A stretch of 64,000 nucleotides of DNA from Microbotryum violaceum (Eukaryota): contig CDLV01000013.1 of assembly GCA_001244265.2 (NCBI GenBank), positions 1,178,001-1,242,000 of the forward strand, in the 5' to 3' direction. The notes under the pieces were generated by a model. That model saw only the letters and a list, made by a program, of their open reading frames with translations. It did not search any database and was not told the DNA's origin. Below are positions 19,367 to 52,558 of the stretch, in pieces (within the stretch, counting starts at the first letter, position 1; each line of letters opens with the position of its first letter). A program made the translations under genes and the position numbers.

Positions 19367-19380
19367 GTGTCCTATTTTTT

Positions 19381-28020: not shown

Positions 28021-28149
28021 CCTAGGAGCGCTGGTTGATGAGTTGATCGAACGCGACAACTCTCGAGGGTGTGGTGTGGGTCAGGTCGGTCAGGAGTGAA
28101 AGAGCGGTTCAGCGCTGGCAATGACGACGCCGGTCACGGGAGCTCACGC

Positions 28150-28466
28150 GGCTTGTATACATGTAAGGATATATCCTTACACATGTTAATGAAATCTATT
28201 AGATAAAAAAAAATGAGTTAAGGTCAATACACAACCAAATCTGTTCATCTTGATATTGTAACATCCACATATAACTATTTCTGAATGGTGTCTGCAAGGA
28301 CTACATGGTAGCATGTGTATTGCAAGACTTGTAGTGATTCAAAATTTCTGTGTCCTTACCGCACCTCCCGTATCCTTACCGCACCCTCGTATCCTTACAT
28401 GTGTCGACATGTGTAAGGATACGCCCGCGCGCGCACGTGACATGCGTAAGGATACGCTCGCGCGCA
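28150..28466. repeat. Left TIR of the MULE
   Basis: Matches the right TIR apart from a 30-bp indel and a few substitutions. Contains repeated TAAGGATA/TATCCTTA motifs. Confidence 0.92.
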
Positions 28467-28762
28467 AAGAGCACTGGCTGCTGCTGGTGAATAATTGACT
28501 CTTTCCGCACACCAGTGGTTGTCAAAGTATCGCCATGCCCATTTTTGCACTAAGTTTAGTTATACATACTATTGCTGACCGCTATCATAGCCCCTACTGT
28601 ACACTACATTAGTGATTGACAAGGCCAAAACTTCACTGGACCACTGGGGCACAACTTTGTGAGTCAAGGTTACTTGCCATCAACATGAATGTTCCCCACT
28701 GTGATTTCCTTCAGGAGCACTGCACCGCTGGAAAACATTGTAAGAGGAGAGCATCGTCAGCT

Positions 28763-30326
28763 CTACTGATCTGCTTTTTTGGCGTTCCCGACACTCACTA
28801 TCTCGCATTCATGAAAAAAAGCCGACGCATCTTCCATCTTCCAGACACCTTGTCCTTCTTCAAGAGTCCCTTTGGGTGGTAGACTTGACACTTTAATGCC
28901 GATATCGGTAGGATCGGAGGGCTCATGGTATAGACTCCACATTTCGTGCCACTGCCGCGTTAGCATTAGGTTGAAGGCTTGCAAGAAGTTCAATGACTCC
29001 TCTTCTAGCTCGTAGAAAAGAACGGAAACTGATCCGCCAGCGTTCCTGTCCCCTATCGGCCTAGCGAGAGAGCCTTTGATTGCGTCGAAATGATAGCATG
29101 CGGCCTCTTGCCCGTATCCAACCGTCGCGTTCGTAACGAAATGTGAATTGTTGATGTTGTACACTCCTGACCGAAGGCGCCAGACCATCTCTGGCATTTG
29201 GTCCGAAACACCGAAGCGTAGCTCAGCTGGGGCCAGTGAATGTTCCGGGTAAATATTGTTGATGTTGATCACAATCACACGGGGGAGCGAGGTGATTGAA
29301 ACGAATTGCACCTAAGAGCCTCCGGGGCAATTGCGCTTGTGATGCCGACGGCCTGAGTTCTTTGCCTCTGTGTACAATTTCAACGGTTGCCCAACGATTG
29401 AGGCGAGGACGTCCGACAACGTTTCCAGCGAATGCGAAGGCAGGTGGAGACTTGAGATGAGAAGGGGCCAGTCAACCACAAACTGTCGTCTTGGGGACAC
29501 CTCAATCTGAATGCAGTTGCAGGCAGTGCAATACCCGGCTCGTTGAAGATGTAATTCGACGAGAGTTCGGTCGGGATCATTCAACGTGACAGTGCTTGGC
29601 AGAACCGGATGATCGACGGTGAACGAGTGAAGTGTCTCGAGCCAGGTCTGCCGAAAAAAGTGATGATTAGCGTCCAGTTTAAATCGTCTTGGGAGGGCGG
29701 GGTTCGCTAAGTGATTGACTGACTACTGGGCTACTATAACTCCCCCGCTTAAATGGAGTTGTAAAATGGCTTCCGCGCTCTTTCGACATCCCAACCACAG
29801 TGGAAATCATCCGTTCTCGTAATTGTGTGTATGCTTCAATTGCGTTCGCCGCCGGTTTCATATCAAACTTTCGAGCCAATGCTGTGTATTCGCGAATCGC
29901 ATCCCATAGCTCGAGTGCCAAATATCGAGGGTGGAGCCTCAACACCATCTCATCGCCAAGTGGAGGAATCACGTAGGCCGTATGGGTGTTAAGGATATCC
30001 AGACACTGCAGCCATGGTTCCAATCCGTTGGCGACCGAGAGCAATGCGATAAGCGTTGAGTCAATCCAGCAAGAATTATCGCTCCACGGGCCTTGGATAA
30101 TGACGACTGGCCCGTCTTCACCTGATCGAAGCCAGAAGTCTGCGTGGAGCTGCACAATCGTGCTACCGAGCGATGTCGACGTCGATGTCTTGGGCGGAGC
30201 GAATTTTACCCTTGGTGCAGATCTAGAGTCCTCTGGGAGCTTGTCACTGGTGCGCTCGAGTGACGTCGACGTCGAAGCAGGTTTTGGCGTGGCGATTTTG
30301 TTGTGGATTTGGACTTGGAGTACCAA
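28763..30326 (-). CDS. Transposon-borne USP-fold (papain-like) cysteine protease exons
   Basis: Cys-box-like GPWSDNSCWIDSTLIALL (ORF 29679-30326). CxxC (GYCTAC) in 29312-29584. His/Asp-box-like GVYNINNSHFVT...CYHFDAIKG...SVLFYE in 28763-29311. Confidence 0.6.
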
Positions 30327-30370
30327 TGAATGAATGAAGATTCGCTGTAGCTACACGGCGTTGATAGATG

Positions 30371-30547
30371 ACCTATTGTGAGATAGAGTATCGCCAAGGT
30401 CAATCAACTTGTAGCAGGCGAATGGGCGAGATAGACATCGAGTGTGTGTTTAAATGTATTACAACTAACCTATTGTGAGATAGAGTATCGCCAAGGTCAA
30501 TCAACTTGTAGCAGGCGAACGGGCGAGATAGATATCGAGTGTGTGTT
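30371..30547. repeat. 80-bp direct duplication (period 97) inside the MULE
   Basis: ACCTATTGTGAGATAGAGTATCGCCAAGGTCAATCAACTTGTAGCAGGCGAA(T/C)GGGCGAGATAGA(C/T)ATCGAGTGTGTGTT at 30371 and 30468. Confidence 0.92.
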
Positions 30548-31003
30548 AAAGAAGAAGGAGAGAGTGAACGAGGCCAGAGCCTTAGACAGTATCCGCGTGC
30601 AAGCCACCTCTGAGTCCAATCAATACGCCACACCGCCATCTGCCTCCATCCGGCGCCGCGCCACGCGCGCGCCAACTTCCCAATGCCACAAGTCCCTCTG
30701 GACCGCTGACCCTTTACTAATTTCCCACAACAGATTTCTACCTTTCTTGCAGATTTCGATGGCGCCAACTCCGACTTGGATGCCACCATGGACAGGGGAA
30801 TGTCGAATGCGAACGTACATGTCCTCTTTGCCTCCGATTGTGATTCAGGTTCCGACAAGAGGAAGGCCAATCGTTTTCGAGGTATCCGGTAAATTCGACC
30901 ATTGGGGGCTTCCAAATTTCGTGCATTGTGCTGCGCAAGAACTGTGAGACGGAGGATAAATCAGAGCAGGGATTCCGTCAGTAAGGCCTCAGCGCCTCTG
31001 CAC

Positions 31004-33824
31004 TCAGTCAACAGTCTGGGGCGGAGGCGTACGTATTTGGGACAACTCCGTTTCTTCATTGAGCGCCCTCACAGCCATAGGGACAACGGGGACTCGTCGC
31101 GATGGGCCGCTGAAATCTGAGCGGGGAGGACTACCTTTCGATTTGGAATTGGACGTTTGATGGAGCTTGATGGAGCGATCCGTCGGGGGAATGGCCTCGG
31201 ATGAATTGCAATGAATTGAGGGCGTCAATCCAACGTCTTCTGATGATTCGCTCGAACTATGCTCGTCAGACGGCGGGTCAGGAATCTTGCGCTTGTGGGG
31301 GTAATCAACAAGTGCTGAGCCTTTTTTGGAGGCCATCGACTGCGCAGTGGGCCCATTGCCCTGCCTTGACCGGTTCTTTGGTTGCTGCCGGGAACGATTT
31401 GACGTGGAAGGAGGTAATTTGGTTGATTCGCTCAGTGGTGGTGTTGCAGGACCCTTTGACAGGTCTGAAGGTCCTTGTGGTGACTCAGAAAACCCGATGC
31501 CAGCTAGACGAGCAGGTGCAGCGAACGAGATCGAAGGCTCAGGCATGTTGGCGTCACTGACGTAGGATGAAGGTACCCGATTGCGTGACTTGATCTCTTT
31601 GATATGAGCGCGGACGTTGCCTTGCTCGTGATAAGTGGAACTCCTGACATAGCCGTCTGTTTTCAAAGCAAAGGCGAGAATGGTTTTAGATGAGGATAAT
31701 GGGCTGGTGGTAACGCTATGCCAGGGCCTTACCGGTCGCATGACTTTCAATTCGGTCTGTCATTTTCGCGAAGTCGATAAGTCGCATCACCCCTTCCACC
31801 GGTCCAAAGCGTTCGCCACCACATGAATGGATTAGGAGCCAGTGGGAAGATTCCACCGCATTTGTTGTGGTAGCCACGCATCTTTCTGCGGATCCATTGA
31901 GTTCCTTGAATACCACATTTCGAATCGCCGGTCGTGTCCACCATTTGATCCAATTCTCTGACACAGGAAACTCGTCGATTGTGCGCTTTGCTATGGACTC
32001 AATCGATGCATGGGACTTCGCGTTGCGCATGGTGTTGACCAGCATTGCAAATCGTTCGTGCTCCGTTTGCGTACTGAGATGTCGGACCCCGAACCTCCTG
32101 ACCTGCTCAATGAAGTGAAAGGCGCACCCGCTTGCCGCCTTCTCGCCAATCTGAATAGCCTCTGCAGTCCACTGTGACACCTGATTGGGTGTGACGTTCA
32201 AGCGTCCCACATCTGCGGTCTTGCGTGCCACGTATCAATCCGAAATGGCTTGGCGAAGACCCGAAATCTTCGCGCTTGAATAATCGACAACAAATGTGAC
32301 TCCGTTGACGATGTCCTCCACGCTATAATTGGCATCGTCAAGAATCTGGAATAGGTGCGCAAAATGTCGGCGGTAGAAGCCCGATCGCTCGTGGTTGCCG
32401 ACGGAGTACAGGATCGGAAACCAGCGACGAGCGCTTGGCGAATAGCAGACCGTGGCGAGCAACACCCAATTGTCGCGAAAGTAGGTGTTGTGAGCGTCGG
32501 TAGGCCATCCCAAATTGCCTTCGACTAGCCGGTCGTCAATCGTTTCCGAGAGCCTCACTTTCATCTGAGGAGTCTGGATGCCAAATGACGTCTCAGAGTC
32601 GGTTAGCGAATTGGAGGTGATCTTCGACTTCGGCCGCGACCCATCGTTCCTGGGTTGCTTCCGAGGGTCAGGATCGTGTATTTGCTCGGCAAGTGGCTGC
32701 CCTTGGCGCTGTCCCGGTATTTCGATGTACGGAGGCAACCGGCATTGGCAACAGCTTCAATAGCTGACCTCAACGTGTCGGGCAGGGCTACATTACGCTT
32801 ACTGTGGCCCACTCTTGGTGCGTATCTCGAGATTGATCGAGTGCTGTCGAATACAGGGCAAATCTCAGAGGCGGACGGCCGATGACGAGGGTCCTGCGGA
32901 AATGCGGTCATTTGTCCCATGCGCAGCTCGGCGGCCGATGCTTGTGGAGCGGCTTTACGCAATTGTTGCAGCTCTTCCAGATGTTGCGGGGACGGACGCG
33001 ACACCGGAGGCGGAGGATGCAAAGATATATATTTCCCCCTGGCATTCCTCACGCTGCCCTCGGGCAATCGTAGCGGAGCACAGGATGTGCCTCATCGGTC
33101 CGTTACAGCTTGTGATTGGACACGGCGGTAACTCGTCTGAAGGCCTCTCAACGTTTGGAGTGAGGTGCTTGCGGGTTGCAGCCTTCTTGGGGCGTCCTGT
33201 GATGAGCTGTGGAGTCTCCTCCTGAAACAACTTCGACCTACTCGCTGTCGACAGCGATGTGTAAGGTCGACGCTTGCCAGGGCATGATTGATCACAACAG
33301 ACGAACACGCCCATGCAACGCCTTTTGCTGTACTTGCTGTACTCGACGTTTGCATCCAAACGCGGGCCTTTCCATCGCCCTTTTGAATCGGTTCGAGATG
33401 ATGACGCCGAGAAAGCCCACATGTGTGACAAGCCACCGCTCGAGCCTGGATCCATACGAACAATGAGGACGTCGCCCCAAGTCCCGTTGGGCCGCCAAGG
33501 ATCAAGAACAATCTCTTGTGGGTATGCTTCGAGCATCAAGTCCGTCATCGTTGTCCTTCCTTCACTATATGTTGGTAAATTCGCATGGTCTTCACTGTTG
33601 ACGAGCTTGTCATCCGTTGAATATGGTTCGGTGTTCGGACGTAGATTGCCGGAGATCCTGTCGCTTGGAGATGCTTCACGCTTTTCCCTGACAAGCAAGT
33701 CGTGCTTGGAAGCAGAAGGTGCGCCACTTGGAACAGGGGCATCTACCCGGCCTTGAGGTCTTGTAGTGATATTTACGAATGGGAGTCGAGCCTTGATGTG
33801 CTCGTAGACCTGTGACATTTGCAA
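31004..33824 (-). pseudogene. MULE transposase with N-terminal GCM-like Zn domain; interrupted copy
   Basis: GCM-like KRRCMGVFVC..SC...RP...CPITSCNGPMRHILC. DDE core TDAHNTYF, RRWFPILYS, FVVDYSSA, GCAFHF (CxxH), WIKWW, TTTNAVESSH. In-frame TGA at 32235-32237 and frame changes near 33000 and 32700, which could be introns. Confidence 0.8.
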
Positions 33825-34449
33825 TCAAGAGTCAGCTCAGCGACTAAAGCTCAACGACGTAGAATCCGTCAACTCATGAAGCTATACGCACTCTCAAGGT
33901 AATGGTTGCTTCTGCTGACAATGAGTCGATGTCGAGTACGAAGCCGGTCAACCCGAGAACCTTGTCCGAAGATTCGGTCGCAGCAGTAAATGCTGCGAGT
34001 TGGTCGTACCGGCAGGAGGCAAGACATGGAGTCGAGTGAGTAGATGACGTAGCCGCGTCGTCGACCACCCAGTAGTCGAAGCAGGAGTCCTCTGTACAAA
34101 GGCACAGATAAGTCGCCAAATTAAACGGTTAGTAACTGGCTGAGTGGCCTGTCAACATTGCTTGGGAACCGATCTAATCTTGTCTTGCATACCTTGGAGA
34201 GCCAGGCCAGTTAGCTCAGCAACCTCTTCCAAAATATCTCGTAGATAGACGAAACAATGTCCTGTCTCCGTGAAGTTGATGGACACCAACAGCGAAAATA
34301 TCATCGGCACGTTAGTCGCCAAGAGAGGTTTCAAGGAAACCTCAGAGTTGACCATCAACACTAAGAAAGGCAAGCGGACAATATCAATTTCCAGTGAAGC
34401 CGTTTGTTAAGCAGGCTGGGAGAGCGCATGTTGATGTAAAAGTGCACCA

Positions 34450-34607
34450 CCTATAGAGGGGGCAGCGGTAGGATGTTACGCAGCGCAGTGTCAGAACTGA
34501 TAGTTGAGGAACAAGTGATTGAAGTATTGCAACTAACCTATATAGGTGGCAGCGGTAGGATGATGCGCAGCGCAGTGTCAGAATCGATAGTCGAGGAACG
34601 AGTGATT
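34450..34607. repeat. ~70-bp diverged direct duplication inside the MULE
   Basis: CCTATA..GG.GGCAGCGGTAGGATG...CGCAGCGCAGTGTCAGAA..GATAGT.GAGGAAC.AGTGATT at ~34450 and ~34537. Confidence 0.85.
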
Positions 34608-34750
34608 AAAGAAAAGATAAACAAGGGAGTCTGCTTTGCGAAGGCATAGGCCCACGCGCAAGACTATAATTCACTCAGACACTAAGTCTAATCCACTGCC
34701 TTAAAACCAATCGAGCCTCCGGGCGCGCGCCTCGCCTCGTTACCGATGGC

Positions 34751-35494
34751 CTACCATCTAGACAACACATGTGGCGTACCTTCAAGCTTAAGAGTCGTAT
34801 TTTGATGCTTGGGAAGAATGGAGCTGTCCTTTGGAATAGCCTTGGGTTGTGAAACGCTTAGACGGCAGAGGTTCGGAGCTAATGCTGGTGAAAGCGAGCC
34901 GACTTGGAGGGTAGAAGCGGAATTCACACTCTCAACACTGCTTTGACTGCGCAGCGACGGCCAACCGGGATCGCGGTTCTGGGAGCACAGGAGAGGCATT
35001 GTTGACTTCTCTTGCTTGATGGTGTGGTGGAAGGGAGTGTCGTGGGCGAGCCTAGTGGAACAAGGTGAGTCATTGTCACGGTCGTCCTTGTGATCGTTGT
35101 GCTTATCGTCCACATAATTGTCACAGTTCTCCTCGCAGTCCTCTGCGGACTTGATGCGATTAGGCAAGTCGCTTGTACGATCGGTGATAGGAAATTCTCC
35201 TGTTGGAGTCGGGGATTTTGATAGCCGCGGTGCGGACACCGTGCAGGTCAATGCTTCAGCTTGAAGGTCGCCAGAATCGTCCTGAGGATGCGCTGAGTTT
35301 GCCGACTCGGGGACCGACTGGCCGTTTCCTTTCCTGATTCGACGATTGGTTCCTACCGTTGATTGGCGTTTGATGCTTGGGACTTTGAATCTCGACTTGG
35401 GAGTCCGCCATTGGGCCCGGTCTCCAGCTCCAGAACGAGTCCGAGCCCAGGGCCCGGCGTCACGGTCGGGAAGTTGGCGGTTCCGCAATCTCAT
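34751..35494 (-). CDS. Low-complexity ORF just inside the right TIR; possible first exon of the MULE protein
   Basis: Long open frame (MRLRNRQLPDRD...), basic then acidic, on the same strand as the transposase. No recognisable domain. Confidence 0.35.
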   Translation of the reverse strand: MRLRNRQLPDRDAGPWARTRSGAGDRAQWRTPKSRFKVPSIKRQSTVGTNRRIRKGNGQSVPESANSAHPQDDSGDLQAEALTCTVSAPRLSKSPTPTGEFPITDRTSDLPNRIKSAEDCEENCDNYVDDKHNDHKDDRDNDSPCSTRLAHDTPFHHTIKQEKSTMPLLCSQNRDPGWPSLRSQSSVESVNSASTLQVGSLSPALAPNLCRLSVSQPKAIPKDSSILPKHQNTTLKLEGTPHVLSRW

Positions 35495-35669
35495 TGATGA
35501 AAGATTTGAGTCCGTGCCTGCTGGCACAAAGCTGGAGGTCGCAATTGGCTGGTTCGCAAAATTCAAACAGTGCCACGGTGTTGACGTCGATGGGCGGTGT
35601 GGGGACAATTAGGTGAACAAATGTGAACAAAGGCTTCGAGCTGAGTGCGCCTCCTGTCGTTCCACATGC

Positions 35670-35993
35670 CACGTGCGCGCGCGGGCGTATCCTTACACAT
35701 GTCACGTGCGCGCGCGGGCGTATCCTTACGCATGTCACGTGCGCGCGGGCGTATCCTTACACATGTCGACACATGTAAGGATACGAGGGTGCGGTAAGGA
35801 TACGGGAGGTGCGGTAAGGACACATAAATTTTGAATCACTACAAGTCTTGCAATACACATGCTATCATGTAGTCCTTGCAGACACCATTCAGAAATAGTT
35901 ATATGTTGATGTTACAATATCAAGATGAACAGATTTGGTTGTGTATTGACCTTAACTCATGTGTAAGGATATATCCTTACATGTGTCGTGGCC
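35670..35993. repeat. Right TIR of the MULE with three ~32-bp subterminal units
   Basis: CACGTGCGCGCG(CG)GGCGTATCCTTAC(A/G)CATGT three times at ~35670-35766, then the reverse complement of the left TIR. Confidence 0.92.
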
Positions 35994-36318
35994 AGAGCTC
36001 ACGCGCTCACAGGCGCACGTCGGGTGGCAGCTGGCGGCAGTCGCAACTGGGCGGCAGACTGAACGGCGCGTTGCCCGGCGACAAGCATCAGCAGGGGCGC
36101 GCACGAGAGCACACCTCGGCTCAGGCTCCACAGCGCGCAGCAAAGTCTGCGTGCAGCTCGAACTACACGGAAGCGTCCCCACTGGCCAGACTCCGGTCTT
36201 AGTTGCTGGAGGAATGGTTTGGCGAAGTTGGATTGCAATGCAGCCCAAACAACTAATAGTGGCAGCAGATGGCGCCAAAGATCTCGACACTCGTCAGCAA
36301 GCCCCTGAGCGGGGGGGA

Positions 36319-39300
36319 TCAAAGGTATTCCTCGATCGCGCTTGTATATCTAAAGGTTTTGGTAAAGAATGTATGGAATTAGGATCTTTGTTCTCGGAAC
36401 TAGGCTCTGGACTTGGACGGAGGACTCACTGATGAGGAAGATGCGAGCTGAGCATGTTGCGCGTGAAAATCATTTGCTTGAAGATGATGTCCGGTCGCTT
36501 GACCTGTGCGATCGAGACGAAAGATTGTGATCAGTCTTGTGAAAAACAAACATTGACCATCGAATACGGGCATGATTGTCACGTACTCTGAAGAGCCTCG
36601 GTCCAGGATGAACGGTTCTTGTGGCATCGGAGGGGAGAATGAGGTCGTCGGGCTTCGTGAGCCATAGCACGTCACCGGGTGGGCAGAGCGTGCTATAGTT
36701 CTGGTTCGCCCCCAAGCTCGTTCGAATTGAAGTGAACTATTTGGATCGTAGAAGTATTTTCACAGCCACGCCACGCCGTGCCACGCCATCAGTAAGCGGT
36801 TGGAACAACCGCGCTCGGAAAGCGGCGACGGAAGGAGTCCAGTCAGGGGTCGCAGCACTCACCCAGTCTTCCTCCTCCTTCTTTAGCGCAGGATCATCAT
36901 CCAATTTGCCCCTTTTGTAAGCCACAATCCGCGACAAAATGTTATCGCAGCTCTCTCCTGGATGGTCGGAGTTGGCGTAACAGAGCCACGCGGCGGCAGA
37001 ACGAATGTCCCTCATGTGACCGAGCGAGAAGCGAGGAACGACATCATAGGAGTGGATGAAGGAGTGCACGAGCTTGCGACACCGCATTGACAGAGCGGCA
37101 TCGGTGACACATCTGCAGGACAGATCTGATCACATCAGTAACGTTACTGACAAGGTCCGAGCACGAGTCCTGACCTACGGTGTAGCGAAACCGAAAACCT
37201 GAACCGATCTTCCAGGCGGCAAGCCCGACTTGCTCGAGATCGTAGCCGAATCCGGGTTGGCCCACATGAGCCCGAGCAAGGTCGCACAGCCAGATCCCAA
37301 ACTATGGCCCGCAAGCTGCAGGCCGTATCCTGGGTTACGTCGAAGCGCCTTGTCGACCACCCGATGCATAGCTCCATCCTTGCGACCCATTGCGAGCGCG
37401 ATCTCGTACATCCCACTGTGAACCGTGTAAGGGGCCAGTCGAGACGACTGCGGAGGTGAAGCATCATCCCAATACTCTGTCTCGTCGAATATGCTGGACT
37501 CGCACGCAAGATCGGTGGCGATGTCGTCGATGGTCGTGGTTCCGCGCACTAACACGGTAATAGTGTGATTTGGGTGATCGGTCTGTTGCATCCGAACATG
37601 TGATGTCAGCAACTCGTCATCTGGCGGATCAAAAGTTATAAGTGTGAATACCAACCAGGATGAAGAATCTCGGAGGCCGTCGCCCTCGCATGTCACGTCG
37701 CTTCCTTGCCTCCCTCTCAGCGACGCGTGCATTTCTTCGCTGCGAAAGCACCTCGGGTCGAACGTCGGTCATATCGTCATCGTCCTCATCGCTCGAACCA
37801 CAAGGCTCTTCAAGTGTAGCATCTGGAGCGACTCCAGCCACTGAGTGCAGGATCGCCTCGTCATGCTTGCCAGTCAACAGACCCCAGTAATCGTACCGAC
37901 TGGAAAGTTTCGCAGCATTTGTTCTCGGCTTGGCTCGTGGTAACGCGCCCTCGCTCTTCAACCCCCAGTCCTCGGCTTGCAGAGCTGAGGTCGTCTCGGT
38001 CTCGGATGTGGCCTCACTTTGGTCGACGGTTGATCCAGGAGGAAATTCGACGGCTTCGACTGCGGAGACTGCCTCCGCGGGCAGGGCCCAGCCTGCGGCA
38101 AGGTCACCGAGTTGAGCTGCTTCGCTCTGTTCCTCCTCCGGAGGGGCAGCATCGTGTTGTCGAGGGCGAAGCGTTCTTTCAAGATCCTCCTCGGCTTGCT
38201 GTCGTGCGAGCGCGGAAAGGTTGTCAGGAGTTAGGGAATGGACCGTCGTTGAGGAAGCATCGGGCGCAATCGTTGCATCGATTGAAGGGAGCTTGACGCC
38301 GAAGAACAAGATGCCGGCACTTCCATACGACCCGAGACACATGGAAGCAAAGCGACGAAGTTGTTGTCGTGCATGTTCTTCCGAGTGCGTCGCTTCAGAT
38401 CCCGTTTGACTGCTGCGATCATCCTGGTTGATGGTCGCTTCGATAATCTCGGCCCCTGACTCGAAAAGTTGATCATCGGTGATTTCCCAAAGCACTCCAC
38501 CCGTCCCATCTTGAGGCGGCGGAATTCTTTCTTTGCCCCAGTCGAGCTCGTCAAGGTGCATCGCCCACCGGCGACCGTCGAGCTCGCCCGTGACGCTTTG
38601 CAAAGCGGCCCATGTTGCTGCTGCTTTCGCCACCTGGATCGTGCTCCAGTGCGACAGACCCCCTTCTTGGTACGGATCGGTCGGGAGGGAGGTGTTCCAT
38701 TCGTCCTTGACCAGACGAGTGAAAGCTTCGAGCGTTCGGAGTGCCTCATCGTTGCCGTAAACGTCTTCAAGGAAGGCGATCGTTGAAGTGGCGCCTCCCA
38801 GCGCAAGATTGGTGATCCCGCTGCCGATGTTGATGCCGAGCAGCGCCAGCTTTTCGGCTGCAGCGATGGCGGCGATGCCCGTCTGGGCAAGAGGCCCAGA
38901 CCCATCCATCATGGGCGCGTTTCCAGCCAAACCGAGCGAATGGTCGAGCAAGACACCAATTCCAGCAACAGCGACCTTGATGGCTCCAAAGCCGAGTGAG
39001 GTCGAAGTCCGGGCGATCGCGAAGCCCGTCGACGCGAAGGACCGTGCGCTGAGCAGGCTGAGACGCGAAGCCGTCAGAGCCGTAGTCGTATGAGGCACAG
39101 CCCACAGAGGAAGAGGTGGAGGCTGAAGCCCCTTTAAGAAGGCAGGAGTTGCAAGTACTGCAGCTTTTGAATCGTCCTGGTCCTGTGCTGTCTCTCGATC
39201 ATCCTCGACCGTGCAAGGCGGGGACATGAGCAAGTCGTCGTCGCGCTGAGCATTGCCATTCACGGTCGTGAGAGCTTGGGATGTTGGGAGTGAGTCGGCA

Positions 39301-39341
39301 CCGGATACCATGGCAGCAGGTGTGGTGGTCGTATCCGACAT
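36319..39341 (-). CDS. Class 3 lipase (DAG-lipase-like alpha/beta hydrolase)
   Basis: PPRFFIL..DH...ITVLVRGT, VHSGM, nucleophile motif LAGHSLGSG, FGFATP, SYDVVPRFSLG. Spliced end MLSSHLPHQYTSAIEEYL*. Confidence 0.88.
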
Positions 39342-43100: not shown

Positions 43101-45814
43101 GAGCGAGAAAACCTCGACGCCCCTGTTCACGGTCAAGCCGGGTGGAATTGCAGGTTACCTCTCGTCGCTGTCCGGCTTTCCTTCCTACGTCGACATCACC
43201 GCCAAAACGGAATGCTACGTCGGCTTCTTGCCGGCCAAGGCTCTGGACAGGATCATGGACCGCAAGCCAATCGTACTGCTCACCTTGGCGAAGCGATTGA
43301 TCAGTCTGCTCTCGCCGCTGATCTTGCACATCGACTCGGCCTTGGACTGGCAGCATGTCAGCGCGGGTCAAGTGATCTACCGTCAGGGCGAGCCAGCTGA
43401 CTCGTTCTACATCGTAAGCCCTGGCTTGTCCCGAATGCAGTGCATCTGTGCTGATAGTCAGCTTATCTAACCCTTCGCCAGGTCATCAACGGTCGACTGC
43501 GGTCCATTAACGAGAAAGCAGGAGGAGGGGTGGAGATCGAGAGCGAATACGGTCAAGGCGAGTCGGTTGGCGAACTCGACTGCATCACCGCATCGACGCG
43601 TCCTTCCACGCTCCACGCCATTCGTGACAGCGAGTTGGCGAGGATGCCCATGACGCTCTTCAACGCCATCTCGGTGCGCCATCCCCTCGTCACGATCCAG
43701 ATCTCGCGCATCATCGCCGCTCGCTTGCGTTCGCAGGTCCACGCCCGCTCGTCGGTCCCACTTCCGCTTTCCACCGGTGGGATGGACCGTATGGGCAAAG
43801 ACAACTTCAACCTCAAGACGGTCGCCATTATTCCTACGAATCGACACGTCCCGGTGTCAGTATTTTCGACGAAGCTCTTGCACGCGCTCGAATCGATGGG
43901 TGCTGCGACAAGCTATCTCAACCAAGCTACAGTGATGCAGGTGCTCGGGCGACATGCGTTCAGTCGAATGGGGACTTTGAAGCTCGCGGGGTGGTTGGCC
44001 GAAACGGAACAAAAGTACCGCATCGTCCTCTACGTCGCCGATACGGCTGTTTCGGCGCCGTGGACGCAGACGTGCATTCGACAGGCCGATTGTATCTTGC
44101 TCGTTGCTGATGGTGGAAGTGATACGGGCCTGGGAGAGTACGAGAAACTTCTTGTCAGCATGAAGACGACGGCGAGGAAGGAACTGATCTTGCTGCATTC
44201 CGAGAGGACGGTGCCGCCTGGCACCACTCGTCCATGGCTCAAGGTGAGCTAGCTCGTCTATTTTTGAGGGGTCTTGGCTGACGAGTGTTCTGACGTGTCG
44301 GACTCGCCCAGAACCGGCCCTGGATTCATGCACATCACCATATCGAAATGATCGGCGCCACACCCGAGACGATGCCAGCGCCTTTCGATGACCCAGCGCC
44401 TGTTGTTGCGCTACGCAAGATCGCCCGACGAGTCGAGGTCCAGATTGGAAAGTACCGCAAGAGTACTCAAGCGCTCGAGCACTTCCGGCCACCGGCGTTG
44501 AACGACTTTGCCCGACTGGCTCGTCGATTGTGCGGAAAATCGATTGGTATCGTGTTGGGTGGTGGTGGTGCGCGAGGGATCTCCCACATCGGCGTGATTC
44601 AAGCGCTCGTTGACCAAGGGATTCCGATCGACATGGTCGGAGGCACCTCGATCGGCTCCTTTGTTGGAGGTCTTTATGCTCGCGAAGGGGACCTCGTATC
44701 GACGTATGGCCGAGCGAAACGTTTTAGTGGTCGCATGTCGACCTTGTGGCGTATCCTCACCGATCTGACTTACCCAGTGGTCGCATATACGACCGGTAAG
44801 TCCCAGCGTCTTAGACGTCTGTGGCCTTTGCTGACTTTGGCCAGTACACCTTTCCCTAGGCCACGAGTTCAACCGAGGTATCTACAAGAGTTTCTACGAC
44901 GTCCACATCGAAGACATGTGGCTGCCGTTCTTCTGCAACACGACGAACATCACCCACTCGAGGATGGAGGTGCATACGACGGGTTATGCCTGGCGGTACA
45001 TTCGGGCGTCCATGTCACTGGCGGGACTGTTGCCGCCGCTTTGCGACGCTGGGGACATGCTTGTCGACGGCGGATACGTCGACAACTTGCCGGTCAGTTC
45101 GGCTTGTGCCAATCATTCCGAGCGTAAATGCAGCTTCAGTCACTGACCATACTTCTACACTAGGTTTCGGTCATGCTCTCGATGGGTGCGGCCTCGGTCT
45201 TTGCGGTCGATGTTGGATCGGTCGACGACACCTCGCCTCGATCGTACGGCGAGAGCGTGTCGGGCTGGTGGCTCTTGGTGCAGCGCTGGAATCCGTTTGC
45301 GACGCCTTCCAACATCCCCAATATTACCGAGATTCAGTCCCGGTTGACCTAGTAAGTCTGCACTTGTCGTGTCTTGTCGTCCGATGCACACTGACTGGTT
45401 TGTTCTATTATTTTCCTAGCGTGTCTAGCGTGAAGATGCTCGAGGAGGCCAAAGCGACACCTGGTGTACTTTACATGAGGATGCCTGTGAGCGCAATATG
45501 CCCTTTCGACAATGATAAACATTAACTCATCAGGCCTGAATCTTGCTTTCCTCTCAGGTCACACAATTCGGGACCGTGAGTCTACGAAGTGGTGGACTCG
45601 AATTCTAGACAACGATTGCTGACTTTTACACTCGGCTATCTCGCAGATGGAATTCAAACGCTTCGGTGAACTGTTCGAGATTGGTCAAGCGCACGCTAAA
45701 GAGTTGTTGACCAAGTGGGGCAAGGAAGGCCAATTGCCGACGGGCACCGTTGGCGAGATCTCGGCGGCCAAAGTTCAAAAGAGGGGTCATAGCATTCGTA
45801 GAAATTCGATTTGA
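40177..45814 (+). CDS. NTE1: Lysophospholipase NTE1 (neuropathy target esterase; cNMP-binding + patatin domains)
   Basis: N-terminal [24 protein letters not shown], cNMP domains, [33 protein letters not shown]-terminus RRNSI*. Confidence 0.95.
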
Positions 45815-46003
45815 AATTCTGGAGTTTGAATGTTGAACACGTAAAATTTTGAAATGCGATGTGATCTGTATATTAAAAACCCAATCTACGCCATCCACGT
45901 GCTGCAATCAAGGATACGTGCCTCGGTGTTACTGCGCTGCGTCGATCGAGTGGCGATGTAATTGGTCATTTGTAGCTATTTCTGCCTCTGGGCTCGATCT
46001 GGT

Positions 46004-49000
46004 AGGACCCCCGAAAGCCCAGCCGGAGGCGCTTTTTTTTTTGACATTTTGAGGACCCAAAATCCTGAAAATCGTCGAGGCGCATCGCAAAAAATTGACA
46101 TTTCGGGACGAAACACACGTTTCGCCCCCGAGGCGCATGCACAGATTTTGACATTTTCCGAGTCGGCCCAATTTTGGCCTACCCTGAGCAGCCTACGGCA
46201 TCGCTTTGGGCCCGTTTGTCGAAACGCGCTTCGCGATGCTCGCGCTTGAACAAGTCACCAGCCATTTTCGCTGATCACTTTAGTTCAGTGGCTGTTAAAG
46301 AATATTAGGGATTAGATACCCCTATCGAGTAAGATAAAAATGACGGGGCCCCTGAGGTTCCGTTCCGCTTCACTTCGTTCTGACACTGGAGCATAGCACG
46401 ACGAAATGATTCCATGCTTGTTTCTTGACGAAGATCAGGACTACTATTTGCACGACGATGACTTTGATCGATTATCGCCGCTCACCAACATGACGGTTGC
46501 CGAGCTCCTCGCCTTCGATGTCGCTCCCGCCGACGCGTCTCTTCACATCGAGTTGTCCAAAGACGAGCCCACCCAGTATTCGAACTTACCCTACCCGACT
46601 CTTCAGACCAGAGACGCGTTTCTCGCTACCGATGCTCTGATCAATGCACGCAAGAAAGGATATCGATCTTTGGCCGTCGGGTCGACGTGTTTGCCGCTCG
46701 GCGCCGATCGGCTATGGTCAGAGTACGACCGAGCAAAAGACGTTCAAAGCTGGGCGCTGCGAGCTCAACGATGGATGGACAAAATTATCGTTATCAACGA
46801 AATTGACCGCAACCGTATCGCTGTCGCACGTCGCATACTGAACGGATTGCAATGGCAAGAGCAAGACGGGCTTCTACCATTGCCTCTTCTTGCAAGTGGA
46901 ACGAGTTTGGTTTATCTCCTGAGATTCTTAAGTCAGTACACCAATCCTTCAGCTGGCCACTCGTATTCATCTCGTATCTGAGGCAACTTGCTTATTCGCG
47001 TCTCTACCCAGGTCATGATTGGCTCGGTGAAGCCGCGGTGAACTTGTCAATTGAAAGCGTCCTTCGAGCTGGACGAGTGCAGAATCCCGATTTCGAAACA
47101 TCGTATGGACTTATACCCTCCACCGTCATCTCCTTGGTAATGGCTCGCCCTCCCGACTCGGATCCTCATTCGGTCTTCAAAGCCTGCTTTTTCGGCCCGC
47201 CAAACCAGTATCGGAATCTCATCGAGCTAGGCGATTGCATGCGCAACACGCCGACTTCAAAGTCAATCTGGTTTCTACCCCTCTGCTCCGACAGCCATTG
47301 GGTCCTGGCCCGCATCAACATGCACAAGCGGACATGGTCTGTGATCAACTCACTCTCCGCCACTCCGATCACCGCGGCTACTCGGACGGCCGTCCTTACG
47401 CTATTCAAATTTCTGAAGCTGGACATCAAAAACGAGTTCCCTCATACTCCTAAGGCGGAACAACAGGAAGACAGCTACTCGTGCGGGCCGGCTACAATCA
47501 ATGCAGTGGAGACGGAGGTGCTCGGGATTGGGTCATTCAACGCAGCGCGCGCTCACATGTCACGGCTCCGTCAATTCTGTCGTTTATCCTCTCTGGTTGG
47601 TGCTGTCGAGGATCTCAAAGAGATCGAATCCATCGTTGCCACGGGCGCAAAATCAAAGGCAAAGTCTGGGAGGGGATCCGCTGCCGGAACACTGAGCAGC
47701 AAGAGCACGTCGGCAGAGTCCGGCAAGGCAGCGACAATCAAGCCAACAAATCAACGAGTCGCATCATCCTCAAAAAACCCGCCAACTTCTCGACTTCAAA
47801 CGACCTTCACCAAGGTATCGAAGCCGACGAAAGCTCGAGAGCTCACCCCCGAGGAGCATACGACGTGGGCTCGCGACCATCCGCCTCTTTTCAGGAGGTT
47901 TGCTGAAAAAGTCGAAGATCTTTGCCCGGGATCGAATGTCGACGTCAACAATCCAAAGTACGTGCGGTGTGGACGTTGTTATGTCTTGGTTCCAATGGCG
48001 GCCTTGCTGTGCAAGGCACGATTTCAATTACATCTCGGCAATAAGAAGTGTGTCAACCTCCAACCCATCAGCAATTTCTTCAGACCTATCGCCTCTGGCT
48101 CAACTGCTACCAGCCCCTCGCTAGGACCGTGCCCCGGCCTTACGTCTGAAACGGCGATGCATTATCTTTCACCGACTGCGGCGCAGGGTGGCGGGGCCCC
48201 TCCTCGACGGACGCTTTGTTTGCGTCTCTATCCCAAAATTGGTAAACGACCAATGACGGAGCTCGAGAGGAAGGAGGTGGACAAATTGGAAGCGAATGAA
48301 TGGAAGTGGCGCAACGATCATCGAGCACCGCGCATCATCAGTGTGAATTGTCGCAAGTATAGCGCTCGAGATTCGATCAACAAGGACGGACCAAGCTTAC
48401 CGTGTGAAGAATGCGCGAGGCTTCCTAAGGATTCATCCTGTCGAGCAGCTCTTCGACGTCAATATGCTGCTGGCGCAACTCGCAAATACACCAACAAGAA
48501 ATATGTCGCGGGCGATACACTTCTCTCGGCCATCTACCGGCGACATCATGGACTAGAAGAGATCCTGGATGACAACGGTCAAGGGACCGTGTATCTACGA
48601 TTCGCGCAAGGTGTGGCCTCAGGAGAATTTGACGGAGCGAACATCTTGGAGGGATTGGTGAAAGCGGCTACGGTCAAGCACGATCGGATGGTCAAGGGCA
48701 AATCAATGCGAGGCTTTGTGCGGTCCGAAGCGCTGCGTGACTTCGAGCAAGCCATGGCGCTGGCGTCTCCGATGGCTCTGAGAGTGCTGCAGGCTACAAT
48801 CGGCGCATCCACAAGCCGAAAACTGCAGTGAGTACCGTCATTCTTTAGTTCCTTCAATTCAACCTCATACTGAATGATCGAGGTGCTTGCAGAATGGACC
48901 GAGCGACATCAGGCAGGATGCGCCTCGGCCTCGACAAGTCCAACATGGATCGTGTTTGCGCGAAACTCGAAGCAGACGGCCTAACGTTCAATTTGCACGT

Positions 49001-52000
49001 AGACGACACGAAGTGTCGATCCAGGATGCGAACCACTCCATACTACTCAGAAGACCTCAGTTTAGAGCGCGAACTATGTACAAAGGGCATATTCCGCCAC
49101 GAGCTGATCGGATCAATTGGTCCGCCACGCATCTACGAAACTCCGGGTGAACTCCCTGATATGTTCAGCGGACCTGACCCCCCGGTTGCTGGAGCCAAAG
49201 TGAGTGGCAATGATTCTTTTAAGTTTGTACTTCATTTCCATGAGGCTTTAACATGTGTCGCCTCTTCATTCAGATCCGAGCTTACATGATAGCACCGAAC
49301 GATGTTGGCTCCCCAGCACAGGTGTTTGCCGCTTTTGTGATCGGCGAAACTACGAACGCGGAGGACGCGACCGAACAGTTACATTCAGTGATACAAGAAT
49401 TAATAAAACGTTGCGTCGCACACCTTCTGGTATCCATCTCCGCAGATGGTGCGGCAAGCGAGGGTGTGCTGCAACGTAATGTTGCCGTCCTTCTGCGCGA
49501 TCAGGGTGGCGCTGTTGCTCAAACCGGATCAAGGAACGCGTCATCATACACCCTCCCCTCCCCAGATCCGGACGGAGTGTTTCCTGAGATCACTATATCG
49601 ACCGTCAACGCCGCGGGAACGCCGATAGTCTTCTGTCGGGACGAAAAACACCTGGCCAAATGTCTGAGGAACGCTATCGACTCTGGAGCAAGATTGCTGT
49701 CCGGCGATCTCGGATGCATTGCCTACCAGGATATGCTGACTATCCTGGAAGGAATGGAGTCGCGTCGTACTCTGTCTCGTCGTGATGTGGTCGGGCGTGA
49801 TCGTCAAGACGACAATGCAACACATCGGGCATTCTCCAAGGCGACGCTCGAACTCGTAACCGAACTCGCTGAAGACGAAAAACTCGACCCCGATGCGGTC
49901 GTATATCTTTTCTTATGTGGCGAGTTACACGATGCCATACAGAACCGGTCGCTTCAGCCCCTTGAATGTATCAGGATGTTGCTCGTTGTCAGATATACGT
50001 TCGAGGCGTGGTATGACTTTGTCCGAAGTCGCCCCGGATCTAGCTCTCACTCGTTCCTCGCCAAAGAAACGCTTGATGGGGTCAGGAAGATGGTTGACTC
50101 AACGATTGCTCCCGTCCGCAACTACCGAGATTTTTGGCCGAAGGAATCGTTCATTCCCTGGCGGCATGGCACAGAAATGGTGGAGCACTTCTTCGGGGAT
50201 ATACGCCAGATTGTAAAGAAGTTCGATGCTCTAGAGTTCTTGCAGGTGCGTTCTTCATCAACCAAGCTAATCTATACAGTAGTTAACCCGGCTAGAACCT
50301 GACAGGCAACTGGCAAAGTCACTGCACACTTGGAGCTCATGAGGAAGTTTAAGACCGAGGCGGCGGGATCACGTCAAGGCTAGCATTATACCTACAACGA
50401 CCTCGACGATCTTGACCTTGTTGCGATGCGAACGTACCCCAGTGATGGCGACATCTCTCTCACCAGTTTTGCAGCGGCAAATACTGCACGTGAACTGCTT
50501 TCAGGTTTACGCATGTGGGAGCCTGTGCAACGCATCGCGTCCAACAGACGCAACCAAGGTCCGCAACCTGACATACTCGTCGAGGACGTACTCGCCCATG
50601 GCACAACAGTTCAAGGTAGTTCCGAACGACTTGGTCTACAAGTGATGCGTATCTGACACGGGATACCATGCCCACTTGAAGTAGATCTTGAAGACCATCA
50701 TCCTACCAAGGAAGATCAAGGTCTGCTCCGCACCGAATTGCTGGATTCTGCTCTTGATGGCATGCGGCGTAGCACGTGCCAAGGTGTTGTGAAACTGGAC
50801 CCAAACGAGCGGGAAGCTGTCGACCGTGCAATTCGATCGCTTGCAGCTCTGGACTTTGACGTTGAGGCAGCCTTGTGAGTGGACAATTCATTGTGCCACG
50901 TGCGCTGAAGCGTTCTTCTACCTTTTAATCCGGACCTCATATTGTTCTCCTTTCTCATTGGCCAGACTCGACGTGCAAATCGCTTACGACGAAGCTGACA
51001 GACAAGCTGAGGAACGCTACGTACTCGAGACCATTGAGAAGGCAAACAGCTCATTACGTCCAATCGTGCCTCTACCAAGCTTAACTAGCGTAATTTCGAT
51101 CTGAACTCATGCATCTTCGGTACTATACAGCCTACACACTTGAAACTTCCGCCTCTTGGTTGATGCTCGCGATACCAGTTTCTCGCTGAACTGGGCCAGC
51201 TTGATTGCCCATCGAGCTGCTCATGAGTGTAGCCACCTCAGAGCTGTTCTACTCAAAGGGAGGCCAATGTAATTGAGCGACACAAGTCGCGGGGAGGCAG
51301 GCTTAAAGATTAGCAATACAGAGCAAGGACGCAGTGCAGTACATTCACGCGTCTTGAAAGGGTTGGTGCAGTCCATGGGACCATCTCGCTTCGAAGACAT
51401 TGCGGGCACCGCAAGGAGCTTTCGCTGGACTGGAGGTGGCCAGGTGGCCCGAGCGCTCACAACAAACGAGATTCAGAAGAACGCCTATATTGAGGATGGC
51501 CGCATTCAAGTGAGTTGTTGCTGAATTTAGGAACGAAGGCAACTGGATCTAATGTTTTGCCGGTCCTATACTTTTAGGAAAAGCTCCCTGAGAGAGACAA
51601 GCAGTACGGAGCGCTAGCACAACGCTATCCTCATTTTGGATCGCTTGACGGAGCTGTTACCGCTGCCACACCATTGGAGATTGGATCTCTGATCTGCTTT
51701 GGCCTCAAGCGTGGCATGCATTCACTCAGCTGCGATCAAACTGCTTACTATGGAGAAGAAGCGCTGTCTATCGGAATTGGTACATTGTTTTGAGTGGCAG
51801 TTGAGCTGTGAAGTTCTCGTTTGACACAAGTCTTGTGTCCTACAGTGCGACACATCTACAGCAAAGTGACAACAAACCACTGCAACCAAGACACGCTCGC
51901 CTCGTTGGTTCTACTCTCAAATGTCGTCGTACAGGAGCTTCGCCTCATAAAGAAAACATGCTATTCCACACACCTCATTGATGGCACTATGCCGTTCCGC

Positions 52001-52558
52001 ATGATTGATGGTCGACAGGTCATCGAGTCATTAGGCCCGTCAACGACTACATATCGTCCAACCACGGACCTTACCTCATGTTACCCGGACGAGCGCCTAA
52101 TCAGCACGTGCGCACATGCCGAGCAAAGGTTTGCCGCCCTTCAGAGCGTGCCCGGCCTGCGAGATGCCGCCGGCAGAACCTCTACAAGTCGCACAAATGC
52201 CACCGCGGAAACAAGGAGCTCAACTTCATCAAAAAGGAAGTCTGACAACGAAGCAGCGAGCCAGCCAGCAAAGCAAGGAAGGCTTGTTTGAAGCGTGGAG
52301 CCACGCGCAACACCAGCCGAAGCGACGCGCGCCGCAAGCCACTTTCGATAGGCCGCAGCGCGCCCGCAAACGCTCGGAACGCGTTTTCGAGAACTTTTGA
52401 GCGATTTTTGGAGCATGTAGAACACATTTTGATAATAATTCCGAGGCGCATGCGAAATTTTGACATTTTGGGGCCAAAATAGGGTAAAAAACTTTGACAA
52501 AAAGGCCAAGAAAGGGCGTTTATCCGCATGCGCCTCTGGCTGGGCTTTCGGGGGTCCT
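46004..52558 (+). mobile_element. P-element-like DNA transposon, ~6.55 kb, 29-bp TIRs, 8-bp TSD
   Basis: TIR AGGACCCCCGAAAGCCCAGCC(G/A)GAGGCGC at 46004-46032, inverted at 52530-52558 (1 mismatch). Flanks GATCTGGT (45996-46003) and GGTCTGGT (52559-52566). Confidence 0.88.
46406..52291 (+). pseudogene. Spliced Ulp1/C48 protease - Zn-binding - P-like DDE transposase fusion gene with C-terminal nonsense lesions
   Basis: Ulp1-like DWLGEAAV, LPLCSDSHWVL, VINSL, QQEDSYSCG. Cys/His clusters CGRC..H..C, CPGL, CEEC. Transposase VDDTK, SISADGA, DEKHLAKCLRN, DRQDD, GTEMVEHFFGDIR. GT-AG introns join the ORFs. In-frame TAG at 50381-50383. Confidence 0.75.

What the first reader, a model, noticed from the sequence alone, without database searches (positions are those of the whole stretch)
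28150..52558. Convergent 'transposase + Ub/SUMO eraser' design in two unrelated DNA transposons 10 kb apart
Seen: the MULE carries a USP-like protease (3' of its transposase) and the P-like element a Ulp1-like protease (N-terminal). These are different protease clans in different transposon superfamilies. Known: SUMO and ubiquitin take part in transposon silencing and transposase turnover in several eukaryotes. Inference: this host may restrict DNA transposons through a Ub/SUMO-dependent pathway, and the elements independently recruited counter-defence isopeptidases. This is the best candidate for an undescribed system in the window.
Basis: inference. Interest (0 to 1): 0.8.

Follow-up and report, generated by a model that had tools for sequence, protein, structure and literature searches.

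The report
Two fungal transposons with fused proteases
Two broken copies of multicopy jumping genes in an anther-smut fungus each fuse their cutting enzyme to a conserved cysteine-protease domain that probably clips ubiquitin-like tags, a design long known from other transposons, here in two pairings that I did not find described.

Summary
Both elements are real, multicopy DNA transposons of a Microbotryum-type fungus. A Mutator-like element (28149-35994, long TIRs, 9-bp TSD) encodes one spliced GCM-DDE protein with a C-terminal Cys/His/Asp domain. A P-like element (46004-52558, 29-bp TIRs, 8-bp TSD) encodes an N-terminal Ulp1/SENP domain. The Ulp1 fold is confirmed (Pfam; Z 16). The MULE tail is only probably USP-fold: no Pfam, PDB or structure proof, and its Cys box best fits coronaviral papain-like proteases, weakly. 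Both domains are under purifying selection (dN/dS 0.31 and 0.26).

The wider inference is not supported. The 10-kb spacing is chance (P=0.27). The P+Ulp1 fusion is old and shared with mushroom-forming fungi, not recruited in this host. Three sampled KDZ elements carry no such protease. Recurrent Ub/SUMO proteases on transposons have been published since 2006-2010 (MULE, Ginger, Helitron, Crypton), including a link to anti-silencing. Every copy examined is broken.

Best reading: cis-acting isopeptidases that protect the transposase complex; counter-silencing is the main rival. This scan noted both elements before on other pieces of this genome.

The parts
28149..35994 (-). Mutator-like element (family A), broken copy; 9-bp target duplication at 28140-28148 and 35995-36003
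   Evidence: TIR arms 28213-28432/35741-35960, 220 nt, 99%; perfect 9-bp TSD in 3 of 4 copies held with both ends; many copies at 95-98%
28149..28465 (.). long TIR with subterminal repeats, 3' end of the MULE gene
35657..35994 (.). long TIR with subterminal repeats, 5' end
33889..34355 (-). MULE exons 1-2 (N-terminal region of unknown function, kept in family B at about 50%)
   Evidence: public gene models P0003/P0004 mapped on the window
33050..33420 (-). GCM-like zinc finger
   Evidence: Pfam GCM below cut-off, E=0.44 and 0.024 in family B; dN/dS 0.26
31733..32700 (-). MULE DDE core: D about 32498, D 32285, CxxH 32126, E 31853; frameshift near 32760-32960 and stop at 32237 in this copy
   Evidence: motifs read from the sequence; dN/dS 0.18; no Pfam MULE hit
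31657..31732 (-). GT-AG intron joining the DDE exon to the linker exon
   Evidence: spliced in an RNA contig of run X2; ends checked
31474..31561 (-). possible alternative 88-nt intron; removing it would end the protein 88 codons after the catalytic Glu motif, before the protease
   Evidence: one contig of run X2 (a related organism), 29 letters on the short side; frame computed; weak
30299..30732 (.). 434-bp solo LTR (TG...CA, 5-bp TSD) inserted in the exon upstream of the protease
   Evidence: absent from other MULE copies; 15 full-length copies among 41 matches; ends
28763..30101 (-). C-terminal USP/papain-like candidate protease: Trp 30086, Cys 30071, Cys-rich motif 29533, His 29143, Asp 29086; intron 29648-29723; stop at 29314 in this copy
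   Evidence: Cys, His, Asp kept between families A and B; dN/dS 0.31; intron spliced in runs X2 and X6; fold not proven
34751..35608 (-). 5' ORF of 285 codons, no family, also open in the two other full copies read
46004..52558 (+). P-like element, broken copy; 8-bp target duplication at 45996-46003 and 52559-52566 (7 of 8 match)
   Evidence: 29-nt TIRs, 97%; TSD perfect in 6 of 11 copies with both ends, 7/8 in 2; copies at 97-98%
47011..47600 (+). Ulp1/SENP (C48, clan CE) domain: His 47296, Asn 47347, Gln 47464, Cys 47482
47840..48828 (+). Cys/His-rich putative DNA-binding region with an invariant Gly-Gly-Gly at 48193; no THAP hit
48897..50245 (+). P-type catalytic core: DD 49002, D 49445, DxxH 49640, E 50183
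   Evidence: invariant columns in the alignment with Agaricomycete relatives (the Glu read by eye); one relative hits Pfam Tnp_P_element, E=2.1e-6
50306..52291 (+). C-terminal exons; stop at 50381 in this copy

Best explanation
Two ordinary cut-and-paste transposon families each make one large spliced protein in which the DDE transposase is fused to a cysteine protease. Shown: the fusion, the multicopy families, conserved catalytic residues, purifying selection, and the Ulp1/SENP fold of the P-like domain. Inferred: the proteases are Ub/SUMO-type isopeptidases, and, being tethered to the DNA-binding transposase, they act locally at the element's ends and target site. Most likely they strip SUMO or ubiquitin from the transposase complex or from nearby chromatin and repair proteins, so that the complex is not removed or degraded before it finishes. 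The fusions are old features of each transposon lineage that answer a pressure common to eukaryotes; they are not a response special to this host, and the two elements are neighbours by chance.
For: One reading frame: public models P0003/P0004 and P0010, two of the MULE introns spliced in RNA contigs, frame open across the joins. Selection: USP-like dN/dS 0.31 (95% 0.22-0.44) and Ulp1 0.26 (0.15-0.47), against 0.58 for both linkers and 0.18-0.35 for transposase domains. His-Asn-Gln-Cys is kept in all four P-like subfamilies of the genome and in 19 of 20 main-family copies, the 20th being truncated there. The same architecture occurs in Mycena and Bondarzewia. No stand-alone protease gene was seen in either element. 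The same proposal exists for Helitron deubiquitinases whose activity was measured (PMC9741609, passages).
Against: No activity or substrate is shown. The Ulp1 model fits SUMO proteases (Z 16.3) and a NEDD8 protease (Z 15.7) equally. The USP fold is unproven. 0 of 18 P-like and 0 of 20 MULE loci examined are fully open (crude test, some loci are halves of one element and some indels may be assembly errors). dS between MULE families is near saturation (1.26). Two family-B deletion derivatives keep the protease exons without the transposase, which a purely cis role does not predict.
Confidence: 0.5

Rival explanations
1. Counter-silencing: the fused DNA-binding domain brings the protease to the element's own repeats, where it removes SUMO/Ub from heterochromatin factors and keeps the family transcribed, as Ulp1-bearing VANC/KIU proteins accompany anti-silencing in plants.
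For: KIU-type VANC genes carry Ulp1 and induce hypomethylation of related elements; the Ulp1 role is stated to be unknown (PMC13317346, passages). Microbotryum has RNAi genes, a DNA methyltransferase and Dim-5-like genes (PMC4469406, passages). MULE exons are spliced in RNA of relatives. Protease-retaining derivatives exist.
Against: Here the protease is part of the transposase, not of a separate anti-silencing gene. Copies carry a C-to-T excess that is highest at TCG (19.5 per 1000 against 4-15 for other contexts), so they are not shielded from the methylation-linked mutation described for this group (PMC3318451, abstract). Nothing seen links SUMO to silencing in this fungus.
Confidence: 0.25
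2. One reading: this host restricts DNA transposons by a Ub/SUMO pathway of its own and the two families independently captured erasers in response.
For: 22 of the 24 Pfam C48 matches in the genome lie in P-like elements; the MULE tail was found only in Microbotryum by three protein searches.
Against: P+Ulp1 is shared with Agaricomycetes and is closer to them than to host Ulp1. The two MULE families that share the tail differ at dS about 1.3. Proximity is chance. 0 of 3 KDZ elements sampled, from a family with 128 Pfam matches, show a protease.
Confidence: 0.07
3. Polyprotein processing: the protease cuts its own large product to release the mature transposase.
For: Proposed for OTU-tailed MULEs (PMC1702500, passages). 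Both proteases hang on long, fast-evolving linkers. The P-like family has an invariant Gly-Gly-Gly, and clan CE enzymes cut after Gly-Gly (recalled).
Against: In the model the Gly-Gly-Gly sits in a folded region (pLDDT about 71-80), not in the disordered linker 197-275; no conserved site is seen in either linker.
Confidence: 0.1
4. The MULE tail is not a ubiquitin-family protease (another cysteine-enzyme fold or a binding module), so only one of the two elements carries an eraser.
For: No Pfam, PDB-sequence or structure hit; host-USP motif test not significant; Trp in place of the Asn that host USPs have five residues before the Cys.
Against: Cys, His and Asp are kept in USP order across families about 50% alike. 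All ten best named Atlas hits share the UCH family or clan. The Cys box aligns with papain-like peptidases of USP fold.
Confidence: 0.15

Closest known systems
MULEs with Ulp1 or OTU protease domains (KAONASHI/KIU and VANC-KIU of Arabidopsis; melon, rice, grape, hydra MULEs; Medicago OTU-tailed MULEs)
   Same: Mutator-type element carrying a Ub/SUMO-type cysteine protease, C-terminal in the OTU case; WRKY-GCM1-type finger (PMC1702500, PMC2836005, PMC13317346; passages).
   Different: Here the tail is neither C48 nor OTU but a USP/papain-like candidate; fungal; fused to the transposase rather than to an anti-silencing gene.
Ginger1 (Ulp1 or OTU tail) and the Trichomonas transposase with Peptidase C19
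   Same: Transposase-protease fusion, interchange of protease classes, and the proposal that Ub/SUMO signalling matters for transposition (PMC2836005, passages).
   Different: Other transposase superfamilies and hosts; the Trichomonas C19 is a Pfam/CDD-level USP, this one is not.
Helitron VTD and OTU deubiquitinases; Crypton C48 peptidases
   Same: Transposon-borne cysteine isopeptidases; Helitron VTDs cleave ubiquitin and were proposed to protect transposition proteins from the proteasome (PMC9741609; PMC3212892; passages).
   Different: Rolling-circle or tyrosine-recombinase elements; different protease families.
P superfamily (Drosophila P transposase, THAP9)
   Same: 8-bp TSD, about 30-bp TIRs, D-D-D(x2)H-E layout; a relative hits Pfam Tnp_P_element.
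   Different: No THAP hit; N-terminal Ulp1 domain and another Cys/His-rich region; ends begin with AGG rather than CA (P termini recalled); about 1,750 aa.
Ulp1/SENP/NEDP1 proteases (C48, clan CE)
   Same: Fold (Z 13.9-16.3), His-x-Gln-Cys layout and both Trp positions.
   Different: Asn replaces the catalytic Asp in all four subfamilies of this genome; 14-21% identity; substrate unknown.
Coronaviral papain-like peptidases (C16, USP fold) and cellular USPs (C19)
   Same: 16-19 residues around the Cys align in register, with Trp five residues before the Cys; His then Asp downstream.
   Different: The match covers one motif only, E 0.016 (Pfam) and 1.1-1.4 (PDB), chosen after I had recalled the likeness; no whole-domain hit.

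Membership tests
MULE superfamily | long TIRs | tested here: met
   220-nt arms at 99% plus flanking arms
MULE superfamily | 9-11 bp TSD | tested here: met
   perfect 9 bp in 3 of 4 copies held with both ends
MULE superfamily | DDE core with CxxH after the second Asp | tested here: inconclusive
   motifs present by reading and conserved between families; no Pfam MULE hit
MULE superfamily | WRKY-GCM1-type finger | tested here: inconclusive
   Pfam GCM E=0.44 and 0.024, under cut-off
P superfamily | 7-8 bp TSD and short TIRs | tested here: met
   8 bp perfect in 6 of 11, 7/8 in 2, one with an indel, two reciprocally swapped; 29-nt TIR
P superfamily | D, D, D(x2)H, E catalytic layout | tested here: met
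   invariant Asp and His columns; Glu motif read in the window
P superfamily | profile match to P transposase domains | tested here: inconclusive
   1 of 6 aligned proteins hits PF12017; window exons none
P superfamily | N-terminal THAP domain; 5'-CA termini (both recalled) | tested here: not met
   no THAP hit; ends start AGG in all 11 complete copies
P superfamily | GTP-binding insertion domain | not tested
   that region was not modelled
Ulp1/SENP peptidase C48 | Pfam PF02902 above cut-off | tested here: met
   28.2 bits against 20.7
Ulp1/SENP peptidase C48 | clan CE fold | tested here: met
   Z 16.3, rmsd 2.7, 166 aligned to SENP3; Foldseek E=1.1e-5 to Ulp1
Ulp1/SENP peptidase C48 | His-Asp-Cys triad plus Gln | tested here: inconclusive
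   His, Gln, Cys invariant; the third residue is Asn in all four subfamilies here and in Bondarzewia, Asp in Mycena
Ulp1/SENP peptidase C48 | SUMO specificity | not testable with these tools
   NEDD8- and ubiquitin-cleaving relatives score within 1-2 Z
USP peptidase C19 | Pfam UCH match | tested here: not met
   none at E<=1 for P0001, P0003-P0009
USP peptidase C19 | Cys box with Asn five residues before the Cys | tested here: not met
   Trp in both families; the 7 host boxes have Asn, though picked by a pattern that needs it
USP peptidase C19 | conserved Cys, His, Asp in USP order | tested here: met
   alignment of families A and B; His is Tyr in 1 of 22 family-A loci covering it
USP peptidase C19 | USP fold | tested here: inconclusive
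   model pLDDT 33.6; no match; Atlas features 0.93 to a UCH cluster, 163 shared features, under the usual 170
Coronavirus papain-like peptidase C16 | Pfam PF08715 match | tested here: inconclusive
   E=0.016, 15 bits against cut-off 26, one motif, family A only

The most novel reading that the evidence does not exclude
The MULE tail is an undescribed family of USP-fold isopeptidases with a nidovirus-like Trp-containing Cys box, switched on or off by alternative splicing of an 88-nt intron, and both it and the P-borne Ulp1 domain are DNA-targeted erasers that undo SUMO/ubiquitin-dependent silencing or removal of transposase complexes in basidiomycetes. That would give the first fungal system in which the long-open role of transposon-borne Ub/SUMO proteases can be tested with two protease classes side by side.
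Probability: 0.15. Interest if true: 0.75.

Novelty: new variant of a known kind. Interest (0 to 1): 0.4.

Why it matters
Ub/SUMO-type proteases recur on many transposon superfamilies, but what they do in transposition is still stated to be unknown (PMC13317346, 2026). These two families add a P-type host for Ulp1 and a candidate new USP/papain-like family on a fungal MULE, both under clear purifying selection, and give small domains that can be assayed directly. They do not by themselves reveal a new host defence pathway.

Tried and rejected
Proximity as a signal: rejected; 6 of 40 MULE loci have a P-like centre within 17.5 kb against 4.3 expected, P=0.27 (one hand-placed point per element; lengths of two contigs were estimated). 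Recent capture of host Ulp1: rejected (19% over 57 aa; profile test; the host exon is shorter, which handicaps it). Asn in the Ulp1 triad as a decay mutation: rejected, all four subfamilies have it. Proving the USP fold: Pfam, PDB sequence, AlphaFold with 6 sequences, Foldseek and VIA and host-USP matrices (82 failed to run, 86 not significant) all gave nothing. Wider relatives of the MULE tail: only Microbotryum proteins (the sixth hit is a low-complexity repeat); none in viral contigs; no relative of the DDE core in metagenome contigs. OTU search of the genome found nothing but rang in no control either, so it is no evidence. Helitrons (154 Pfam matches): no whole element was read; the fragments in held loci show no protease hit, which says little. 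Expression: no RNA holder on record; X1 and X8 behave as DNA; no spliced joint of the P-like element is among the joints shown (21 were not shown). The Gly-Gly-Gly as a self-cleavage site: disfavoured. M. saponariae models P0007-P0009 that lack the DDE core may be gene-model skips, since the join fits a splice in phase. Papers: term searches of PMC6446971 and PMC7601131 gave no hits; two papers were not held.

Full report
Setting. The window is contig C11 of a 33-Mb, 20-contig genome. Homologues of both elements are named Microbotryum silenes-dioicae and M. saponariae, so this is an anther-smut fungus or a very close relative. The rest of the window holds ordinary fungal genes; a lipase-3 gene and an NTE1/patatin gene lie between the two elements.

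Element 1. It spans 28149-35994 on the minus strand, with 220-nt arms at 99% and further subterminal repeats. The 9-bp target duplication is perfect in 3 of the 4 copies held with both ends. The DNA search gave 118 matched pieces, mostly 95-98% alike. A second family (B, about 50% amino-acid identity) is present, full-length in L122. Public models P0003 and P0004 join GCM-like finger, DDE core, linker and the C-terminal domain in one protein of 1,513-1,561 aa, with the introns that I had inferred from the sequence. RNA contigs support two of them: 29648-29723 in runs X2 and X6 (two studies) and 31657-31732 in X2; X2 also splices host NTE1 introns, so it is RNA. No single contig shown spans transposase and protease. 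The window copy is dead: frameshift near 32760-32960, stops at 32237 and 29314, and a 434-bp solo LTR at 30299-30732.

Is the tail a USP? It keeps a Cys in an N-terminal helix, a Cys-rich motif, and His then Asp near the end, across families A and B. In family A the Cys is present in all 22 loci covering it; of the 22 covering the His box, the Asp is kept in all and the His in 21 (some loci repeat one element). Language-model features place it next to UCH clusters (0.92 and 0.93; all ten best named hits in one family or clan), which the tool calls a lead. Against this: no Pfam hit, no PDB sequence hit, a model of pLDDT 33.6 with no fold match, and matrices from 7 host Cys boxes and 4 His boxes that do not beat shuffles (47, 19 and 172 of 200 for P0004). 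A 29-residue query around the Cys hits one Pfam family, coronavirus papain-like peptidase (E=0.016), and its 9 PDB hits (E 1.1-1.4) are by name viral papain-like or polyprotein chains, the 4 alignments shown being in register; the family-B segment gave no hit. Those enzymes have the USP fold (PMC8706127, passage). I chose that query after recalling the likeness, and the role of the Trp in catalysis is recalled, not confirmed. I put a USP-type fold at about 75%.

Element 2. It spans 46004-52558 with 29-nt TIRs. The 8-bp duplication is perfect in 6 of 11 complete copies, 7/8 in 2, shifted by an indel in 1 and reciprocally swapped in 2. Most listed copies are 97-98% alike. The N-terminal domain is C48 by Pfam, by profile against PDB (Ulp1, E=4.8e-14) and by structure (Z 16.3 to SENP3/5, 15.7 to a NEDD8 protease). 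The core has the P-type Asp, Asp, DxxH, Glu layout and 1 of 6 aligned proteins hits Pfam Tnp_P_element. Four relatives in Mycena and Bondarzewia have the same order of domains at 21-24% identity with invariant His, Gln and Cys. Four subfamilies in this genome keep His-Asn-Gln-Cys; 6 of 8 stretches upstream of divergent cores show the domain, the other two being interrupted by other sequence. Of 24 Pfam C48 matches in the genome, 22 are in these elements and 2 look like host Ulp1 and Ulp2. The window copy has a stop at 50381, after the catalytic core.

Selection. Between MULE families A and B (L042 against L122) dN/dS is 0.31 (bootstrap 0.22-0.44, 358 codons) for the tail, 0.26 for GCM, 0.18 for DDE and 0.58 for the linker; dS is 1.2-1.4, near saturation. 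Between the window P copy and a 90% relative it is 0.26 (0.15-0.47, 195 codons, dS 0.23) for Ulp1 and 0.58 for the linker. The domains are therefore functional parts of the families, not neutral cargo. Yet none of 18 P-like or 20 MULE loci passed a crude open-frame test, and C-to-T changes peak at TCG, as reported for this fungal group (PMC3318451, abstract).

Neighbourhood is chance: 6 of 40 MULE loci have one of 55 P-like loci as near, 4.3 expected, P=0.27; 28 and 32 of them crowd on contigs C1 and C2. The Ulp1 fusion was not recruited here: a profile from the four mushroom elements alone scores the Microbotryum TE domains 25-41 bits and the host Ulp1 exon 14. The MULE tail was found only in Microbotryum, so its age is open, but it predates the A/B split. 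Three KDZ elements sampled from 128 Pfam matches show neither domain; Helitrons were not examined whole, so enrichment across all DNA transposons remains untested.

Literature. Bao et al. 2010 (PMC2836005, passages) list Ulp1 and OTU on Ginger1, Ulp1 on Mutator, OTU on Helitron and C19 on a Trichomonas transposase, and propose a role for the pathway. Babu et al. 2006 (PMC1702500, passages) describe OTU-tailed MULEs and suggest processing. Cryptons carry C48 (PMC3212892, passages). Helitron VTD domains are active deubiquitinases proposed to protect transposition proteins (PMC9741609, passages). A 2026 review (PMC13317346, passages) links Ulp1-bearing KIU/VANC genes to anti-silencing and calls the Ulp1 role unknown; the primary paper and the KDZ paper were not held. 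A fungal survey already used C48 and OTU as transposon markers and counts P elements among the rarest (PMC5751038, passages). Rice ULPs fused to MULE domains: PMC12903978 (passages). Microbotryum papers (PMC10502011, PMC4469406; passages) have no hits for SUMO. PMC3417536 (passages) added nothing specific. I did not find P+Ulp1 or a USP-like tail on a fungal MULE described in searches; these cover open-access text only, not Repbase or subscription journals, and I read no supplements, where such domain lists may stand. Earlier notes of this scan describe both elements from other pieces of this genome and reach the same doubt about the USP fold.

Mechanism. The tether to a DNA-binding transposase argues for local action. 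I favour removal of SUMO or ubiquitin from the transposase complex or its surroundings (0.5) over targeted counter-silencing (0.25), a non-USP tail (0.15), self-processing (0.1) and a host-specific arms race (0.07); these overlap in part. All steps after the fusion, the fold of Ulp1 and the selection are inference. One weak lead: a contig of X2 skips an 88-nt GT-AG intron in the linker, which in the window's frame would end the protein before the protease.

Verdict. The observation largely holds; the claim of an undescribed, host-specific system does not. New variant of a known kind; interest 0.4.

Noticed in passing
window 30299-30732: Solo LTR with 15 full-length copies among 41 matches; a related sequence about 80% alike borders many of the breaks in other MULE copies, so LTR elements repeatedly interrupt this family.
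   Followed up: partly
L024 and L026 (G000:C2:2087868-2147897): Two P-like copies in opposite orientation have reciprocally swapped 8-bp target duplications, the mark of an inversion of about 50 kb by recombination between them.
   Followed up: partly
window 31474-31561: Possible alternative intron that would give a transposase without the protease tail; one RNA contig of a relative.
   Followed up: partly
L123:896-4109 and L125: Two family-B MULE derivatives share the same two internal deletions, losing GCM and most of the DDE core but keeping the protease exons.
   Followed up: partly
L032, L034, L037 (near element position 6499): Three P-like copies are interrupted at the same place near the right end by sequence beginning with the same 30 letters, suggesting a site-specific insertion or descent from one event.
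   Followed up: no
L116:1150-1178: A P-like subfamily only 35-45% alike in protein keeps a 29-nt terminal repeat 97% identical to the main family's, so cross-mobilisation is possible.
   Followed up: no
window 14676-17870 and 20467-22773: Tandem paralogous genes about 5.8-6.0 kb apart, 70-80% alike, with weak DUF4962 hits; probably secreted or membrane-anchored lyase-like proteins.
   Followed up: no
window 19379-19687: Near-perfect hairpin: 135-nt arms, 97%, 39-nt loop, beside a 487-nt-spaced direct repeat; MITE-like.
   Followed up: no
window 5343-6677: ORF ending in a transglycosylase SLT domain (Pfam E=9.2e-5), unusual for a fungus.
   Followed up: no
G000:C1:2790224-2791746 and C2:2545332-2546853: Two loci with matching UCH hit patterns (possible duplicated host USP gene), one abutting P-like copy L028.
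   Followed up: no
window 34751-35608: 285-codon ORF at the 5' end of the MULE, open in the three full copies read, with no family; family B has a 295-codon ORF in the same position.
   Followed up: partly
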